Positions 58,213-63,261 of a stretch of DNA of 64,000 bases are shown here, piece by piece; position 1 is the first letter of the stretch, and each line of letters starts with the position of its first letter. This DNA comes from an uncultured Gemmatimonadales bacterium (GTDB lineage Bacteria > Gemmatimonadota > Gemmatimonadetes > Gemmatimonadales > GWC2-71-9). The position numbers and the translations under genes were made by a program. The stretch covers positions 107,817 through 171,816 of the forward strand of contig CAVOPE010000014.1 of the NCBI GenBank assembly GCA_963697755.1. The letters run 5' to 3'. The notes beneath the pieces are model-generated. The model ran no database searches, was not told the origin of the DNA, and saw nothing but the letters and a program-made list of their open reading frames with translations.

Positions 58213-58226
58213 CCCCGCGGCGGCGC

Positions 58227-58255
58227 TTGATCCATCGCCGGTCGCTGGCTAAATT
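58227..58255 (+). promoter_or_regulatory. sigma70-like promoter candidate for rpsU (TTGATC-17 nt-TAAATT)
   Basis: Read directly: TTGATC (58227-58232), a 17-nt spacer, TAAATT (58250-58255), about 50 nt upstream of the rpsU ATG. The consensus used is the generic bacterial one and may not apply to this lineage. Confidence 0.35.
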
Positions 58256-58306
58256 CGCCCCTCGGTACATTTTACGCCGACAGGCGCGAGAGGGGTGATC
58301 ACAGGA

Positions 58307-58504
58307 ATGCCGGAAGTCATCATCCACGATGACGAGAGCTTCGATCGGGCGCTCAAGCGGTTCAAGAAAAAGTGCGAGAAGGCGGGGATCCTCTCGGACC
58401 TGCGCAAGCACCGCCACTTCGAGAAGCCCAGCGAAAAGCGGAAGCGGAAGATGAACGCCGCGGTCCGCAAGAATCGTCGTGGACCTCGTGTCCCCCGAGC
58501 CTAA
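58307..58504 (+). CDS. rpsU: 30S ribosomal protein S21
   Basis: Within ORF 58295..58504; ATG 58307. [48 protein letters not shown]. Confidence 0.92.
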
Positions 58505-58943
58505 TCCCGGCGTCGGCGAGGCCTTGCGGGCCGCGATGAACGCCGCCCGCAAAGCCCAGGACAAGGATCGAACCCTCGTGCTGGGCACGATCCTCGCCAA
58601 TCTGAAGAACCGCGAGATCGAGCTGCGACGGCCCCCCACCGACGAGGACGTGCTCGAGGTGCTGCGGAAAGGCATCAAGACCCGCCGCGAATCCGTGGAG
58701 CAGTACACCGCCGCCAACCGGCCGGAGCTGGCCGAGACCGAGCGGAAGCAGATCCAGGTGCTGGAGGAATTCCTCCCGCCGGCGGTGGACCCCGAGGAGA
58801 TCCGGGCCGCCGTCCGAGCCGCCATCGCCGGCGGCGCGAAGGACCTCGGGAAGGTGATGGGCCAGGTGCTCCCCAAGTTCAAGGGGCGGGCCGACGGCAA
58901 GACCGTGAACCAGATCGTGCGCGAGGAGCTGCAGGCGGGCTGA
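58479..58943 (+). CDS. GatB/YqeY-domain protein
   Basis: ORF 58479..58943. ...[21 protein letters not shown]..., [54 protein letters not shown]. Start uncertain (GTG 58479 or 58488; overlaps the rpsU end). Confidence 0.85.
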
Positions 58944-61396
58944 TGTCGCTGTCGCCAGACGCGGTTTCTCCCGGGGTGCCGGCCCAGACTGAGGGCGGCA
59001 CCCCGTCGCCTTTACCCCCCGACCAGAGCGCCGACGCGCTGGAGACGATCGAGTTCGACCAGGTGGTCGAGCTGGTCGCCACGCGTGCCGTCGGGCCGCT
59101 GGGTGCCGCCAGGATCCGGGCCCGGCGCCCGACCGACGATCTCGCCTGGATCGGCGGCGAGCTGGCGGGCGTGGGCGAGGTGGCCGGTCTCTTTCGCCGA
59201 GGCGACGCACTGCTGGTCGAGCCGATCCCCGATGTCGGCCGCGCGCTCGGCCGCCTGCGGATCGACGGCAGCGTGCTCGAAGGCGGCCAGCTCGCCGGAA
59301 TTCACCGCGTGCTCGTGGCGGCGCGGCTCATCCAGGCGGATCTCCGGCGGGTCGCCGAGATCGCGCCGCGCGCCGGCGCGATGGCGCGCCCGCTCCCGGA
59401 CAAGACGATCGAGCGGCGGCTCGAGCAGTCGGTGGACCCCGAAGGCGGGGTGCTCGATACCGCGAGCCCGCGCCTGGCCGCCGCGCGGCGCGAGGTGCAC
59501 GCGGCGCGCCACCGCCTGCTGCGCAAGCTCGAGACGCTGCTCCGCGGACTCGACGCGAGCACGGCCCCGGCCGATGCCTCCGTCACGGTCCGCGGCGGAC
59601 GGTACGTCATCCCGGTGCGCCGGGACTCGCGGAGCCGGCCGGGCGGCATCGTGCACGACGAGAGCGGCAGCGCCGGCACGCTGTTCATCGAGCCGTCCGA
59701 GGCCATCGAGCTGGGCAACGCCCTGCGCGAAGCGGAGGTCAACGAGGAGCGCGAGACACTCCGCGTGCTGCGCGAGCTGACCGACCTGCTCCGGCCCGAG
59801 CTGCCGCTGCTCCGCGACCTGGTGGAGATGTGCGTCGCCGTGGACGATCTCGTCGCCCGGGCGCGCTACGCGATGGACGTCGGCGGCGAGGTGCCCGAGA
59901 TGGCGGCGGCGCCGGCCGCGCTCCGGGTGGTGAACGGACGGCATCCGCTGCTGCTCGCGGGCGCGGACCCCGTCGTGCCCTTCGATCTCGAGCTCCCGTC
60001 CGAGGAGCGCACGCTGCTCATCAGCGGGCCGAACACGGGCGGGAAGACCGTGCTGCTGAAGGCGGTCGGCCTCGCGACCGCACTGGCCCAGAGCGGCATC
60101 GTGCCGCCGGTGGGGGCGGGCAGCCGGCTGCCGGTCTTCCGGCGCTACTTCGCCGACATCGGGGATCGCCAGAGCATCGCGGCGAGCCTCTCGACGTTCA
60201 GCGCGCACGTCCGCATGCTCCGCCGGATCCTCGACCAGGCCGACGACGCGACGCTGGTCCTGCTCGACGAGGTCGGCAGCGGGACCGATCCGGCGGAAGG
60301 CGCCGCGCTCGCGGCGGCGACGCTGGTGTCGCTGACCGGGCGGGGCACGCTCACGCTCGCGACCACGCACCTCGGATCGCTCAAGGACGTGGCGAGTCAC
60401 ACGCCTGGCGTGGTGAACGCGTCCCTTCAGTTCGACGCGGCCACGCTCACGCCGACCTACCGGTTCCTGAAGGGGGTGCCCGGCCGCTCCTATGGGCTGG
60501 CCATCGCGCGCCGCCTCGGCGTACCGCCCGCGATCCTGACCGATGCCGAAGCCCGCGTGCCCGACGCGGAGCGCAGTCTCGACGCCCTGCTGGCGGCCGT
60601 GGAGGAGCGTCAGCGTGAGCTCGCCGCCGCCCAGGCGGCCCAGGCGGAGCGCACCGTGGAGCTCGACGCCTTGGAGGCAAGGCTCTCGGTCCAGCAGACG
60701 TCGCAGGCGGCGCGAGAGGCGGAGCTCAAGCGGCGGGAGAAGGACGCCGAGCGCGCGGGCCGGCAGCAGGCCCGCGCCTTCCTCCTCGAGGCGCGGCAGC
60801 GGGTCGAGGACGCCCTCGGCGCGGCGCGCGGCGCTGCCGACGACGCGGCGCGCGAGGCCCGGCGACTGGTCGAGGAGGGTATTCGGGAGCAGGGGGAGGA
60901 GTTGGAGAGGACGGAGAGGACGGAGAGGACGGAGAAGACGGAGAGGGAGAGTGCGATCGAGGTCGGCGATCGAGTCCGGCTGGCCAGTGGGGGAGCGGGG
61001 CAGGTGCTCGAGGTCCGGCCGGACGGCAAGCTCGTCGTGGCGATGGGGGCGATGAAGATGGTGGTGGACGCCAACCAGGCCACCCGCACGGCGGGCCAGC
61101 CTCAGGTGGCGACACCCTCTCCGTCCTCTCCGTCCTCTCCGTCCTCTCCGTCCTCTCTCGAGATCGACCTCCGCGGCATGACGGGCGACGAGGCCGAGAT
61201 GGCCACGGTCGCGGCGGTGGACGCCGCCGTGTTGGCGGAGCAGCCGTACCTGCGCATCATTCATGGGATGGGCACCGGCGTGGTGCGTGAGCGCGTGCGG
61301 CGGGTCGTCTCGGGCGACCGGCGCGTGGCGCGCTTCGGCTTCGCGCCGCGGAACCAGGGCGGCACCGGGGTCACCATCGTCGAGTTCTCGGCGTGA
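58943..61396 (+). CDS. mutS2: endonuclease MutS2 (MutS domain V ATPase + C-terminal Smr)
   Basis: ORF 58943..61396; the ATG overlaps the preceding TGA. LLISGPNTGGKTVLLKAVGL (Walker A), LVLLDEVGSGTDPAEGAAL, a long coiled-coil, then Smr LEIDLRGMTGDEAEMATV...LRIIHGMGTGVVRERV. Contains the two inverted 9-mer arrays listed separately. Confidence 0.92.
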   Translation: MSLSPDAVSPGVPAQTEGGTPSPLPPDQSADALETIEFDQVVELVATRAVGPLGAARIRARRPTDDLAWIGGELAGVGEVAGLFRRGDALLVEPIPDVGRALGRLRIDGSVLEGGQLAGIHRVLVAARLIQADLRRVAEIAPRAGAMARPLPDKTIERRLEQSVDPEGGVLDTASPRLAAARREVHAARHRLLRKLETLLRGLDASTAPADASVTVRGGRYVIPVRRDSRSRPGGIVHDESGSAGTLFIEPSEAIELGNALREAEVNEERETLRVLRELTDLLRPELPLLRDLVEMCVAVDDLVARARYAMDVGGEVPEMAAAPAALRVVNGRHPLLLAGADPVVPFDLELPSEERTLLISGPNTGGKTVLLKAVGLATALAQSGIVPPVGAGSRLPVFRRYFADIGDRQSIAASLSTFSAHVRMLRRILDQADDATLVLLDEVGSGTDPAEGAALAAATLVSLTGRGTLTLATTHLGSLKDVASHTPGVVNASLQFDAATLTPTYRFLKGVPGRSYGLAIARRLGVPPAILTDAEARVPDAERSLDALLAAVEERQRELAAAQAAQAERTVELDALEARLSVQQTSQAAREAELKRREKDAERAGRQQARAFLLEARQRVEDALGAARGAADDAAREARRLVEEGIREQGEELERTERTERTEKTERESAIEVGDRVRLASGGAGQVLEVRPDGKLVVAMGAMKMVVDANQATRTAGQPQVATPSPSSPSSPSSPSSLEIDLRGMTGDEAEMATVAAVDAAVLAEQPYLRIIHGMGTGVVRERVRRVVSGDRRVARFGFAPRNQGGTGVTIVEFSA
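60904..60951. repeat. tandem 9-bp array (GGAGAGGAC x3 perfect + GGAGAAGAC + GGAGAGGGA), left arm of an inverted pair
   Basis: Read directly; translated in the mutS2 frame as ERTERTERTEKTERE. Confidence 0.95.
61115..61158. repeat. tandem 9-bp array (CCGTCCTCT x4 perfect, preceded by CCCTCT), reverse complement of the left arm
   Basis: Read directly. CCGTCCTCT is the reverse complement of AGAGGACGG, the same repeat in another phase. Translated in the mutS2 frame as PSPSSPSSPSSPSS. Confidence 0.95.
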
Positions 61397-63261
61397 GCAT
61401 GATTCCGGACGAGATCGTCGAGCAGGTGCGCGACAGCGCCGACCTGGTCGGCATCATCGGCGAAGCCGTCGAGCTCAAGCGCACCGGCGCCGACTATCGC
61501 GGCCCCTGTCCGTTCCACGGTGGCACCCACCGCAACTTCGCCGTCATCCCCAAGAAAGGCCGCTACTACTGCTTCGTGTGCCACGAGAGCGGGGACGTCT
61601 TCTCGTGGCTCATGAAGCGGCTCGGCCTGGACTATCCGACCGCGGTGCGCGAGGTCGCGCGACGCGTCGGGATCGTCATCCCCGAGCGCGCCGCGCGCGC
61701 GGGGCCTGACCCGCTCGAGCCACTGTTCGGCGCGGTGGCCGTAGCCCAGGACTGGTTCACCCGGCAGCTGCTCGAGTCGGCGGACGCCAAGACCGCTCGG
61801 GAATATCTCGAGGGCCGCGACGTGCCGATCGACACCGCGGCGGTGCACGGGCTCGGCTTCGCGCCGCCCGGCAAGGCCTTCCTCGCGGCGATGGCCCAGC
61901 TCGGCATCGAGCAGACCGTGCTGATCGACGCGGGGCTCGCCGCGGTGCGGGATGACGGCAGCGTGATCCCCCGGTTCCGCTCGCGGCTCCTGTTCCCGAT
62001 TCACGATCTCCGGGGACGCGTGGCCGGGTTCGGCGGCCGGCTGCTGGGTCCGGGAGAGCCCAAGTACCTCAACTCGCCGGAGAACGCGATCTTCCACAAG
62101 GGTCGCCAGCTCTACAACCTGCACCAGGCGAAGAGCGCCATCCGAAAGGAGGAGTCGGTCATCCTCGTGGAAGGGTATCTCGACGTGCTGCGGCTGGTGT
62201 GGGCCGGCATCGAGCACGTCGTCGCGCCGCTCGGCACCGCCCTCACGCCGGACCAGGGGACCCTGCTTCGCCGCTTCGCGCCGGCGGCCGTGCTGCTCTA
62301 CGACAGCGATCAGGCCGGGCTCCGCGCCACGTTCCGCGCGGGCGACGAGCTGCTCCGCCACGGTGTCCGCGTGCGAGTGGCCACCATGCCCGCCGGCGAC
62401 GATCCCGACACGCTCGTGCGCCGGGGTGGGGCGGCGGCGCTGGAGCCGATCCTCGGCGACGCCATCGATCTGCTCGAGCGGAAGCTTCAGCTGCTGGAGC
62501 AGAAGGGCTGGTTCGAAGGGGTGGACCATCAGCGCGATGCGCTCGACCGGCTGCTGCCGACCATCCGCGCCGCCGCCGACCCGATCACCCGTGACCTGTA
62601 CCTGAAGGAAGTCTCCGAGCGCACGGGGGTCAGTCGCGAGACGCTGCTCCGTCAGGTCACCGCACGCCCGGCGCCCGGCACGGGGGCGGGGTCGGGGCCG
62701 GTCTCGGGGAGGGAGCAGGGACCTGGACGTCCGGACGGCCAAGGCAACGGCGATGCGCACCGCGCGCGCTCCCCCGGTCGGGCGCGCCGAGCCAGCGCGG
62801 CCGAACGGGATCTGCTGAGGGTGCTGATGAAAGACCGCGCGTGGATCCAGCGCGCGGCGCAGGAGGTGCCGCCCGAGCGCGTGGAAACCCCGGCGTTTCG
62901 TGAGGTGTACGAGGCGTTGCTTCGCAGTCCCGAAAACGCGGGGTCCCAAATATTCTTGGAAGAGCTGTCCCCGCTCGCCCAGCGCGCCTGGGCCTGGCTG
63001 GACAGCGTGGAAAGGAAGTACGGGTCGCCTGACCTGGACCGGATGTACGTCGGGGCGTGCAACGAGCTCGAGATCCGACCGCTCCGCCGCCAGCTCGCGA
63101 CGCTCAACCGTCAGCTCCGCGAGCGGGACCGGGCGATGACCGCCGAAGATTTTGACACGCTGATTCAGGAGCGTACCCGATTGAACCGGGAAATCCTCCA
63201 GCGGTTTCCCGAGGAGCAACAGAAACGATCGATTCGGAAAGGCGATGTCGATGCACGCTGA
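61393..63261 (+). CDS. dnaG: DNA primase
   Basis: ORF 61393..63261 (GTG overlapping the mutS2 TGA; alternative ATG 61399). Zinc finger CPFHGGTHRNFAVIPKKGRYYCFVCHESGD. TOPRIM VILVEGYLDVL ... LLYDSDQAG. Confidence 0.93.
   Translation: MSMIPDEIVEQVRDSADLVGIIGEAVELKRTGADYRGPCPFHGGTHRNFAVIPKKGRYYCFVCHESGDVFSWLMKRLGLDYPTAVREVARRVGIVIPERAARAGPDPLEPLFGAVAVAQDWFTRQLLESADAKTAREYLEGRDVPIDTAAVHGLGFAPPGKAFLAAMAQLGIEQTVLIDAGLAAVRDDGSVIPRFRSRLLFPIHDLRGRVAGFGGRLLGPGEPKYLNSPENAIFHKGRQLYNLHQAKSAIRKEESVILVEGYLDVLRLVWAGIEHVVAPLGTALTPDQGTLLRRFAPAAVLLYDSDQAGLRATFRAGDELLRHGVRVRVATMPAGDDPDTLVRRGGAAALEPILGDAIDLLERKLQLLEQKGWFEGVDHQRDALDRLLPTIRAAADPITRDLYLKEVSERTGVSRETLLRQVTARPAPGTGAGSGPVSGREQGPGRPDGQGNGDAHRARSPGRARRASAAERDLLRVLMKDRAWIQRAAQEVPPERVETPAFREVYEALLRSPENAGSQIFLEELSPLAQRAWAWLDSVERKYGSPDLDRMYVGACNELEIRPLRRQLATLNRQLRERDRAMTAEDFDTLIQERTRLNREILQRFPEEQQKRSIRKGDVDAR

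What the first reader, a model, noticed from the sequence alone, without database searches (positions are those of the whole stretch)
60904..61158. Inverted arrays of a 9-bp tandem repeat bracket a small domain inside mutS2
Seen:
- 60904-60951 is five units of GGAGAGGAC (three perfect, two degenerate), read in frame as ERTERTERTEKTERE.
- 61115-61158 is the exact reverse-complement array (CCGTCCTCT x4 plus a degenerate unit), read in frame as PSPSSPSSPSSPSS.
- Together they form an interrupted palindrome of about 45 nt per arm with a 163-nt spacer.
- The spacer encodes AIEVGDRVRLASGGAGQVLEVRPDGKLVVAMGAMKMVVD, the small beta-rich segment that precedes the Smr nuclease domain in MutS2 proteins.
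- I do not know of MutS2 genes described with such symmetric low-complexity linkers.

Geometry:
- Arms plus spacer total 255 nt, or 85 codons.
- By hand, an in-place inversion about the repeat axis brings the minus-strand frame of ORF 60726..61115 into the mutS2 frame. That frame is stop-free across the whole segment.
- Both orientations would therefore keep a full-length ORF with Smr in frame.

Possible meanings (inference):
- a recombination-invertible or deletable cassette;
- a strong mRNA hairpin or DNA cruciform;
- repeat-number variation;
- the footprint of a palindromic insertion.

Caveat: open antisense frames are common at this GC content, so the frame preservation is weak evidence.
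Basis: partly seen in the sequence, partly recalled or inferred. Interest (0 to 1): 0.7.

Follow-up and report, generated by a model that had tools for sequence, protein, structure and literature searches.

The report
Split repeat hairpin inside mutS2 gene
Two mirror-image runs of a 9-base repeat really do flank a small folded domain inside a MutS2 gene, but they look like one copy of a widespread, apparently undescribed family of repeat hairpins in Gemmatimonadales-type bacteria that has taken over the protein's two floppy linkers, not like a DNA flip-switch.

Summary
A 43-nt inverted repeat (42/43 complementary, 167 nt apart) made of GGAGAGGAC / GTCCTCTCC tandem units sits in the two low-confidence linkers flanking the SH3-like (MSSS/KOW) domain of a Gemmatimonadales MutS2.

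It is not a one-off:
- 30 of 78 orthologues carry an inverted repeat in the same two linkers.
- The units differ by lineage (9-mers, or 8-mers such as GGGGCAGC and GGACGGGC).
- The two arms share the same period in 20 of 21 cases and match their own partner better than other genomes' partners.
- Linker length is the same with or without arrays.

The same arrays are common elsewhere as hairpins, mostly intergenic. The G-rich arm is always 5'. In relatives such arrays flank 23S-rRNA-IVS-protein genes, and one flanks a tRNA.

The invertible-cassette idea is not supported. No orthologue has the domain inverted. A profile of the hypothetical inverted peptide hits nothing among 5.8 billion protein clusters. 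The inverted frame carries stops in 18 of 30 orthologues. Arm mismatches show no G·U bias, so RNA-level selection is not evident.

Best reading: a self-homogenising DNA repeat hairpin tolerated in unconstrained linkers. Any effect at mRNA level is inferred only.

The parts
58943..61396 (+). mutS2 coding sequence (817 aa) that contains the whole feature
   Evidence: ORF list. Pfam MutS_V at aa 359-538, MSSS at aa 674-711 and Smr at aa 741-815. Full-length match to B. subtilis MutS2 chain 7qv3_v, E = 6.5e-119. Orthologues at 46-86% identity in 80 Gemmatimonadota genome loci.
60904..60951 (+). Left, G-rich arm. GGAGAGGAC x4.8, 92% purine, read as ERTERTERTEKTERE (aa 655-669). It forms the linker between the coiled coil and the SH3 domain.
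   Evidence: AlphaFold2 places it at the end of the long helix, with pLDDT falling below 50 at aa 664-669.
60948..61114 (+). The 167-nt 'loop' between the arms. It contains the native SH3-like domain coding segment.
   Evidence: the repeat finder I1. Its length is fixed: the SH3 segment is 108 nt in nearly all orthologues.
60962..61075 (+). MSSS / KOW-like SH3 domain (Pfam aa 674-711)
   Evidence: PF20297, E = 1.4e-7, 31.5 bits against a cut-off of 26.8. Five beta strands at aa 677-715 with pLDDT above 90. It aligns to the corresponding segment of B. subtilis MutS2.
61115..61158 (+). Right, C-rich arm. CCTCTCCGT x4.7, 91% pyrimidine, read as PSPSSPSSPSSPSS (aa 725-738). It forms the linker that abuts the Smr domain.
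   Evidence: pLDDT is below 50 at aa 719-734.
61163..61387 (+). Smr nuclease domain, immediately downstream of the right arm
   Evidence: PF01713, E = 6.4e-20. pLDDT is about 90 or above.

Best explanation
The two arms are one member of a lineage-wide family of 'tandem-array hairpins'. Each hairpin has a G-rich array of 8-9-nt units, a loop, and the complementary C-rich array. The family is common in Gemmatimonadales-type genomes and is usually intergenic.

In this MutS2 clade the hairpin occupies the two unconstrained linkers on either side of the SH3/KOW-like domain. The domain's coding segment is therefore the loop, and the arms are translated as ERT-type and SPS-type low-complexity linkers.

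Shown:
- The arms are true mirror copies.
- Their unit and period change together from lineage to lineage.
- They overwrite existing linker sequence rather than adding length.
- They decay in some lineages and are near-perfect in others.

Inferred:
- Replication slippage keeps each array homogeneous.
- Intrastrand template switching or repair in the folded-back hairpin copies one arm onto the other (quasipalindrome correction). This is concerted evolution at the DNA level, tolerated because the linkers carry no sequence constraint.
- As a by-product the mRNA can form a 43-bp duplex of about -98 kcal/mol. That duplex would be an RNase III substrate and a barrier to the first ribosome.

It is not a DNA inversion switch.
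For: Reality and context.

Comparative evidence in mutS2:
- 30 of 78 orthologues have an inverted repeat (score at least 14, arms 17-50 nt) between the same two linkers, always G-rich arm first. Units differ by lineage: GGAGAGGAC, GGAGAGGGC, GCAGAGGAC, GGACGGGC/GGCGGACA, GGGGCAGC, GGGGGGCA.
- Composite arms in L020 and L025 keep their two unit types in mirror order.
- Both linkers are tandem-repetitive in 21 orthologues, with the same period in 20 of 21; Spearman 0.60, p = 9e-9.
- The own-genome partner beats shuffled partners in 10000 of 10000 permutations.
- With the window's stem imposed on the alignment, 30 of 43 pairs show changes on both sides, against 22.3 in shuffles (0/500) and 8-19 in slid controls.
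- Repeat-bearing genes are confined to the clade with at least about 78% core identity, and are patchy inside it.
- Linker lengths are the same in repeat-bearing, repeat-free and outgroup genes: medians 96/99/96 nt on the left and 87/90/94.5 nt on the right.
- Arm mismatches: 26 G·U-type, 39 A·C-type and 69 transversions. This fits decay of DNA copies rather than RNA-constrained pairs.

Family evidence:
About 60 have a C-rich partner 11-450 nt downstream and none has one upstream. Most are intergenic.
- One complete hairpin lies in frame between two DnaA-ATPase domains and reads ETERTEK...PSPSSPSSPSSPS.
- 11 of 12 23S_rRNA_IVP genes in the fetched loci are flanked by such arrays, G-arm 5' whatever the gene's strand.
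- One hairpin loop holds a tRNA.
- The HIT-rpsU spacer next to mutS2 is a second hot spot in 23 of 54 relatives.
- Copy number varies between samples: 4 against 11-12 units.
Against: - The 64-kb window contains no other array hairpin, so the family may be rare in this particular genome.
- The taxonomy of the metagenome contigs that carry the identical unit was not established.
- The slippage plus template-switch mechanism is inferred from patterns and was not observed.
- Clade-wide persistence at 20% protein divergence, and the covariation signal, fit selection for pairing equally well.
- How arms came to flank a pre-existing domain is unexplained.
- The universal G-first polarity is unexplained. 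It could reflect an RNA-level or replication-level function.
- In the GGGGCAGC lineages the right-arm peptide (APLPRGPAAP) is conserved across many proteins, which hints at some protein-level constraint.
Confidence: 0.58

Rival explanations
1. The long-range stem is a selected cis-regulatory structure of the mutS2 transcript (or a DNA cruciform). Pairing of the two linkers' RNA would create an RNase III site or a translation or termination barrier that sets the level of full-length MutS2. Selection, not copying, would keep the arms complementary.
For: - Very stable predicted fold: z = -8, and the arms alone give -98 kcal/mol.
- The position is conserved across a clade while the sequence changes, and there is a covariation signal.
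- The polarity is universal: the G-rich arm is 5' on either strand's transcript.
- Related hairpins enclose a tRNA and IVP genes. Stems of 23S rRNA IVS elements that carry the same gene family are cut by RNase III (PMC4990558).
Against: - There is no G·U over A·C preference among 134 arm mismatches, and half are transversions.
- About half of the genes inside the clade, including the window's nearest relatives (83-86% protein identity), have lost the repeat.
- RNAalifold finds no column-wise consensus stem, so the register is not conserved.
- A translating ribosome would keep the arms apart.
Confidence: 0.2
2. The arms are what is left of insertions of a mobile palindromic element (IVS-like / IVP-cassette termini, or a MITE-like hairpin) into the linkers. 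The SH3 segment would have ended up between surviving half-elements.
For: - The same kind of arrays bound IVP-gene cassettes that are present or absent at an otherwise 81-130-nt spacer.
- A complete hairpin sits in frame in another protein's linker.
Against: - Linker lengths are unchanged with and without arrays, and also in outgroups.
- Each linker holds only one arm type, never a full hairpin.
- The SH3 domain is ancestral: it is present in outgroups and in B. subtilis MutS2.
- No transposase or target duplication was seen.
Confidence: 0.1
3. The feature is an intragenic inverton: recombination between the arms flips the SH3-coding segment and produces an alternative MutS2 isoform.
For: - Inverted repeats of 43 nt lie inside a CDS.
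- In this window the inverted version stays open and keeps Smr in frame.
- Intragenic invertons exist in other bacteria (PMC10028968).
Against: - No inverted SH3 segment in 78 orthologous genomes.
- No protein matching the inverted peptide profile among 5.8 billion clusters.
- Stops appear in the inverted frame in 18 of 30 orthologues.
- All three antisense frames are open here anyway at this GC content.
- The arm sequence is not conserved, so it is not a recombinase site.
Confidence: 0.03
4. Nothing links the arms. Two low-complexity linkers (E/R/T-rich and P/S-rich) in a high-GC genome would be complementary by composition alone, or the arrays are an assembly artefact.
For: - Purine-rich codons for E/R/G and pyrimidine-rich codons for P/S are partly complementary.
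- Repeat arrays break and confuse assemblies: many database fragments start at the arms.
Against: - Codon-shuffled linkers reach at most 16.5, against 40.5 observed.
- Period and unit match between arms in 20 of 21 orthologues.
- Independent assemblies from many projects show the same architecture.
- The ORF is intact, and the segment between the arms is orthologous.
Confidence: 0.03

Closest known systems
23S rRNA intervening sequences (IVS) carrying an S23p / 23S_rRNA_IVP ORF
   Same: - Long terminal inverted repeats form a stem around a cargo.
- The Coxiella IVS has a 28-bp stem cut by RNase III, plus strain-variable tandem heptamers at its 5' end (PMC4990558).
- In relatives of this genome, 11 of 12 IVP genes are flanked by the same kind of inverted tandem arrays.
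   Different: - There is no IVP gene here, and the feature is not in rRNA.
- The 'cargo' is a native protein domain of the host gene, and the arms are translated.
- The arms are made entirely of tandem 8-9-mers.
- RNase III cleavage was not tested.
Palindromic repeat elements inside protein-coding genes (Rickettsia palindromic elements; also REP and Correia elements). RPE from my own knowledge (Ogata et al. 2000); Correia/RNase III from PMC2649163 (listed).
   Same: - A dispersed hairpin-forming repeat family is tolerated in frame in coding sequence, at sites without structural constraint.
- A complete in-frame hairpin of this family exists in a DnaA-domain protein.
   Different: - Those elements insert as a unit and add residues.
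- Here the two arms are split by a 167-nt native segment, and linker length is unchanged.
- The arm sequence turns over between lineages while staying self-complementary.
Intragenic invertons (Chanin, West et al.; PMC10028968)
   Same: An inverted-repeat pair inside a CDS flanks a segment whose inversion would recode the protein.
   Different: - No second orientation was found in any assembly or protein set.
- The inverted frame is not conserved.
- The repeats are variable tandem arrays rather than a conserved recombinase site.
Short tandemly repeated heptamers of cyanobacteria and Beggiatoaceae (STRR, TAACTGA arrays; PMC4679880)
   Same: Short-unit tandem arrays are dispersed through genomes, mostly intergenic, with variable copy number and occasional occurrence inside ORFs.
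   Different: - Those are direct arrays; one indirect repeat was reported among 170 sets.
- Here the defining feature is the paired inverted array with fixed G-first polarity, in high-GC genomes.
Quasipalindrome correction by intrastrand template switching (Ripley; Lovett and co-workers; from my own knowledge)
   Same: This is a DNA-level process that makes imperfect inverted repeats perfect. It is the inferred way the arms stay complementary.
   Different: - It is described for short quasipalindromes as a mutational hotspot.
- It is not described as the long-term maintenance of tandem-array arms across a 167-nt coding loop.
- It was not observed here.

Membership tests
MutS2 (Smr/MutS family; host gene) | MutS domain V ATPase, a C-terminal Smr nuclease domain, and a small SH3/KOW-like domain before Smr | tested here: met
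   Pfam MutS_V 8.3e-30, Smr 6.4e-20, MSSS 1.4e-7, all above their cut-offs. End-to-end match to B. subtilis MutS2, E = 6.5e-119.
Intragenic inverton | Inverted repeats flanking a segment inside a CDS | tested here: met
   43-nt arms, 98% complementary, both inside the mutS2 ORF.
Intragenic inverton | Both orientations present in the population or in related genomes | tested here: not met
   No antisense SH3 segment in 78 orthologues. The inverted-peptide profile finds nothing among 5.8 billion protein clusters. Raw reads could not be examined.
Intragenic inverton | A conserved recombinase-recognised repeat, and a coding frame maintained in the flipped state | tested here: not met
   The arm sequence differs between lineages. 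The flipped frame has stops in 18 of 30 orthologues. Nearby recombinase genes were not searched for.
IVS-like element (S23p / 23S_rRNA_IVP cassette) | Terminal inverted repeats forming a long stem | tested here: met
   The same array type flanks IVP genes in relatives.
IVS-like element (S23p / 23S_rRNA_IVP cassette) | An S23p/IVP ORF in the loop, with the element located in 23S rRNA | tested here: not met
   The loop encodes the MutS2 SH3 domain. tblastn finds no IVP gene in the window.
IVS-like element (S23p / 23S_rRNA_IVP cassette) | Excision of the stem-loop by RNase III | not testable with these tools
   This needs RNA end mapping or an in vitro RNase III assay.
Dispersed palindromic repeat in coding sequence (RPE / REP-like) | Many copies of the same hairpin unit at unrelated loci | tested here: inconclusive
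   At least 120 metagenome contigs carry the identical array, and about 60 carry it as hairpins. Second and third sites exist in relatives. No other copy occurs in this 64-kb window. The whole genome is not available.
Dispersed palindromic repeat in coding sequence (RPE / REP-like) | Presence adds an inserted peptide relative to orthologues that lack it | tested here: not met
   Linker lengths are the same in repeat-bearing, repeat-free and outgroup genes.
Conserved structured RNA | Column-wise conserved pairs with compensatory changes and G·U tolerance | tested here: inconclusive
   RNAalifold finds 0 consensus pairs. With the window's stem imposed, double changes exceed the controls. There is no G·U bias, 26 against 39 A·C. 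No Rfam family matches.
Simple-sequence contingency locus (phase variation by slippage) | Unit length not a multiple of 3 inside a CDS, with copy number varying within populations | tested here: not met
   The window's unit is 9 nt, so slippage stays in frame. Other lineages have 8-nt units. Population variation at mutS2 could not be tested.

The most novel reading that the evidence does not exclude
The tandem-array hairpins would be a distinct, undescribed class of self-renewing repeat with an obligatory polarity, the G-rich arm being 5' on both strands. They would be regenerated by hairpin-templated DNA synthesis and would act at RNA level as RNase III processing or insulation stems. They enclose tRNA and IVP genes. 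In mutS2 they would make production of the SH3-Smr module of a ribosome-collision sensor conditional on stem formation. The split hairpin would then be a regulatory device rather than tolerated junk.
Probability: 0.12. Interest if true: 0.8.

Novelty: new variant of a known kind. Interest (0 to 1): 0.58.

Why it matters
If the reading holds, it shows that a hairpin-forming repeat family can take over both flexible linkers around a folded domain of a housekeeping protein and keep its two halves matched across a coding 'loop' for a long evolutionary time. That is a clean natural case of concerted evolution between separated inverted repeats.

It also gives a source of low-complexity protein linkers that is dictated by DNA dynamics rather than by protein function.

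The wider family is not covered by Rfam, and the open-access literature searched does not contain its sequences. Its features are:
- arrays of 8-9-mers;
- strict G-first polarity;
- association with 23S-rRNA-IVS-protein genes and a tRNA;
- positional hot spots whose unit sequence turns over.

The family offers a handle on the old question of what IVS/S23p cassettes are and how their stems arise.

For annotation, it warns that ERT/SPS-type or AGQRGSG/APLPRGP-type linkers in these genomes are repeat-derived. The arrays also break assemblies.

Tried and rejected
- RNAalifold on 29 repeat-bearing orthologues gave no consensus pair, because the pairing register shifts between lineages. I therefore used per-genome arm detection and an imposed-stem count.
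- Rfam, at gathering thresholds on 8 hairpin loci and at E <= 1 on window 56-64 kb, found only a tRNA and one chance sRNA hit.
- The search for the inverted-cassette peptide profile found nothing.
- The exact-protein look-up for the window's MutS2 found nothing on record. The best database relative is 86% identical over the C-terminal 217 aa. Strain-level copy-number variation at mutS2 could therefore not be assessed.
- A literature search for the array strings returned no paper. Searches on Gemmatimonadetes repeats and on STRR returned only loosely related work.
- I tested whether the SH3-less MutS2 genes (L066, L068, L071, L072) hide an inverted SH3 segment. They do not.
- I tested whether any of the 120 metagenome contigs with the identical array was mutS2. 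None was.
- blastn of those contigs against the window was uninformative about their taxonomy.
- One apparent C-first exception (L062) turned out to be self-complementarity of the GTCCGACC array. The real hairpin there is G-first.
- I rejected ectopic conversion from a single dominant genomic repeat as the cause of arm matching, because different sites in one genome carry different units. L059 has three sites with three units, and L007 and L014 also differ.
Full report
**1. The observation**

TRF reports GGAGAGGAC x4.8 at 60904-60946 and CCTCTCCGT x4.7 at 61116-61157. These are the two best tandem repeats in the 64-kb window. The repeat finder pairs them as 43-nt arms (60905-60947 and 61115-61157), 98% complementary and 167 nt apart.

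The 18-mer occurs only inside the arms: 8 matches against 0.15 expected. No comparable inverted repeat exists elsewhere in the window. Shuffling the codons of the two linkers never gives more than 16.5 on a scale where the real pair scores 40.5.

The region folds far better than shuffles, both as RNA (-188.3 kcal/mol, z = -8.1) and as DNA (-99.2 kcal/mol, z = -8.1). The arms alone form a -98 kcal/mol RNA duplex with one A·C mismatch.

**2. The coding context**

Both arms are in frame in an 817-aa ORF, 58943..61396. The ORF is a MutS2: it has MutS_V, the MSSS 'MutS2 and Smr-associated SH3 domain' (aa 674-711) and Smr (aa 741-815). It matches B. subtilis MutS2 end to end, E = 6.5e-119.

The arms encode ERTERTERTEKTERE (aa 655-669) and PSPSSPSSPSSPSS (aa 725-738). 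An AlphaFold2 model built on 60 sequences gives:
- a confident five-stranded barrel for aa 677-715, and a confident Smr domain;
- pLDDT below 50 at aa 664-669, the end of the long helix, inside the left-arm peptide;
- pLDDT below 50 at aa 719-734, covering the right-arm peptide.

So the arms occupy the two flexible linkers around the SH3/KOW-like domain.

**3. Orthologues**

A genome scan returned 80 Gemmatimonadota loci with MutS2 at 46-86% identity. Seventy-eight had a usable C-terminus.

- In 30 of them the left and right linkers contain an inverted repeat (ungapped score at least 14, arms 17-50 nt), always with the G-rich arm upstream.
- The repeat unit differs by lineage: GGAGAGGAC, GGAGAGGGC, GCAGAGGAC, GGACGGGC/GGCGGACA, GGGGCAGC, GGGGGGCA.
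- At protein level this shows as complementary peptide pairs such as AGQRGSGAAGQ...AAPLPRGPAAP and ADGRTGGQ...PSARPPVRP.
- L020 and L025 have two unit types per arm, arranged in mirror order.
- Both linkers are tandem-repetitive in 21 genes, and in 20 of these the period (8 or 9) is the same on both sides.
- Each left linker matches its own genome's right linker better than chance pairing, in 0 of 10000 permutations.
- With the window's stem imposed on a MAFFT alignment, 30 of 43 pairs show changes on both sides, against 22.3 in shuffles and 8-19 in slid controls.
- RNAalifold finds no column-wise consensus, because the register shifts.
- Repeat-bearing genes are confined to the clade with at least about 78% core identity to the window. 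They are patchy within it, and the window's nearest relatives (L001, L002, L003, L005, L039) have only decayed remnants.
- Linker lengths are the same in repeat-bearing, repeat-free and outgroup genes. The arrays therefore replace linker sequence rather than add to it.

**4. The arms belong to a dispersed family**

The same units occur at other sites in the fetched loci.
- A general inverted-repeat scan found array-type hairpins mainly in the HIT-to-rpsU spacer, 0.7-1.3 kb upstream of mutS2.
- That spacer is 81-130 nt when empty, and 95 nt in the window.
- It carries palindromic inserts in 23 of 54 relatives.
- Units there again differ by genome: GGAAGGAC, GGACGGTCAGAC, GGCGGACA, GGAACGTG, GGCGGTAG and others.

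Inserts with long loops contain a 23S_rRNA_IVP gene (PF05635, E = 2.9e-29). Of 12 IVP genes in all held loci, 11 are flanked by inverted arrays, with the G-arm 5' whichever strand the gene is on.

- About 60 have the complementary array 11-450 nt downstream, and none has it upstream.
- The reverse complement of G-loop-C is again G-loop-C, so this polarity is a real asymmetry.
- The one apparent exception was an artefact.
- Most are intergenic, often right after a stop codon or between convergent genes. Only about 5 of 120 lie in convincing ORFs.
- Loops can hold a tRNA (L110), REP-like hairpins, or an IVP gene (L185).
- One complete hairpin lies in frame between two DnaA-ATPase domains and reads ETERTEKREKADRTETTER-LYSQ-PSPSSPSSPSSPS.
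- At an IVP cassette sampled in several metagenomes, the C-arm has 4 units in one sample and 11-12 in others.

No Rfam family covers these hairpins. No paper in the library contains the array strings.

The nearest described things are:
- IVS elements of 23S rRNA. The Coxiella IVS has a 28-bp terminal stem cut by RNase III, an S23p ORF and strain-variable tandem heptamers (PMC4990558).
- Direct heptamer arrays of cyanobacteria and Beggiatoaceae (PMC4679880).

**5.

Inversion:
- In this window the flipped version would stay open. However, all three antisense frames are open here, and 18 of 30 repeat-bearing orthologues would acquire stops.
- No orthologue has the SH3 segment in antisense, including the four that lack the domain.
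- A profile of hypothetical inverted peptides (A1) finds nothing among 5.8 billion protein clusters.
- The arms are not a conserved site.
- The inverton reading is therefore not supported, although reads were not available.

RNA structure: the potential is strong. Among 134 arm mismatches, though, G·U-type (26) does not exceed A·C-type (39), and 69 are transversions. That looks like decay of DNA copies rather than constrained RNA pairs.

Insertion footprint: the link to a palindromic family is right, but the unchanged linker length argues against simple insertion.

Artefact: independent assemblies show the same architecture.

**6. Most likely mechanism**

Shown:
- The arms are mirror copies that co-vary in unit and period.
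- They overwrite unconstrained linkers.
- They are refreshed in some lineages and decay in others.
- They belong to a polarity-constrained hairpin family.

Inferred:
- Slippage homogenises each array.
- Fold-back of the nascent or template strand lets one arm template the other (quasipalindrome correction).
- This could also explain the polarity. If copying of the G-rich template arm is the step that stalls, only a G-first hairpin already has a nascent complementary arm available to switch to at that moment.
- The mRNA consequence, a 43-bp duplex that RNase III could cut, follows from known RNase III behaviour on IVS stems but is untested.

Rivals with non-trivial weight are a selected RNA or DNA structure (0.2) and remnants of mobile-element insertion (0.1).

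**7. Verdict**

Its most exciting interpretation, an invertible cassette, is not supported.

It is best filed as a new variant of known kinds: palindromic repeats tolerated in coding sequence, and IVS-like stems. Its unusual features are:
- arms split around a native domain;
- tandem-array arms that turn over yet stay matched;
- strict G-first polarity.

Interest is moderate to high. Confidence in the mechanism is moderate.

Noticed in passing
window 58213-58307 (HIT stop to rpsU start); relatives L003, L005, L007, L021, L029, L033, L042, L044, L075, about 1.6-2.3 kb in locus coordinates: This spacer is empty in the window (95 nt). In 23 of 54 relatives it is a hot spot for palindromic inserts. 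Long-loop inserts are [G-rich array]-23S_rRNA_IVP gene-[C-rich array] cassettes, and the unit sequence differs from genome to genome.
   Followed up: yes
L006, L009, L018, L027, L032, L001, L024 (upstream of mutS2); loops of L136, L152, L184: A second repeat type occurs, GTCATCC[CT]GAGCG.AGCGA[AG]GGA. It forms inverted pairs about 270-300 nt apart, or sits as a hairpin nested inside array-hairpin loops. It looks like a separate REP-like family.
   Followed up: no
window 62669-62709 (dnaG linker); L046 about 6737; L059 6710-6740: The DnaG inter-domain linker carries a weak G-rich 6/12-nt array in the window. Two relatives have clear (GGGGCAGC)n arrays there, without an inverted partner. Single arrays therefore also colonise protein linkers.
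   Followed up: partly
L110 3568-3800: A tRNA gene (Rfam 48.7 bits) sits in the 151-nt loop of a GGAGAGGAC-type array hairpin.
   Followed up: partly
L183 (minus strand of the contig), aa about 310-345 of a 717-aa ORF: A complete array hairpin is translated in frame as ETERTEKREKADRTETTER-LYSQ-PSPSSPSSPSSPS, between two DnaA-type ATPase domains. L123 (DnaE) and L087/L138 (cation antiporter) carry single arrays read as GEDGEDGED.
   Followed up: partly
L066, L068, L071, L072 (Gemmatimonadaceae MutS2): These MutS2 orthologues lack the SH3/MSSS domain altogether. A short unrelated linker joins the coiled coil to Smr. No inverted copy of the domain is present.
   Followed up: partly
P0118 (336 aa, JGI metagenome): A class I methyltransferase domain is fused to the MutS2 C-terminus (linker arrays, SH3, Smr). 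It is either a real fusion or a chimeric assembly near the repeats.
   Followed up: no
L211-L219 (one IVP cassette sampled in several metagenomes): The C-rich arm has 4 units in L213 and 11-12 in L211/L212, and contigs often end inside the arrays. This shows population-level copy-number variation and assembly breakage at these repeats.
   Followed up: partly
Orthologues with 8-nt units (e.g. L009, L013, L024, L027, L073, L080; L021, L023, L030): Because the unit is not a multiple of three, gain or loss of a single unit would frameshift MutS2 upstream of SH3 or Smr. That is a potential on/off contingency behaviour, absent from the window's 9-nt version.
   Followed up: no
window 59012-61264 (minus strand) and other antisense ORFs: All three antisense frames are open across the finding, including a 750-aa antisense ORF. 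This is typical of the GC content, and it means open antisense frames carry no information here.
   Followed up: yes
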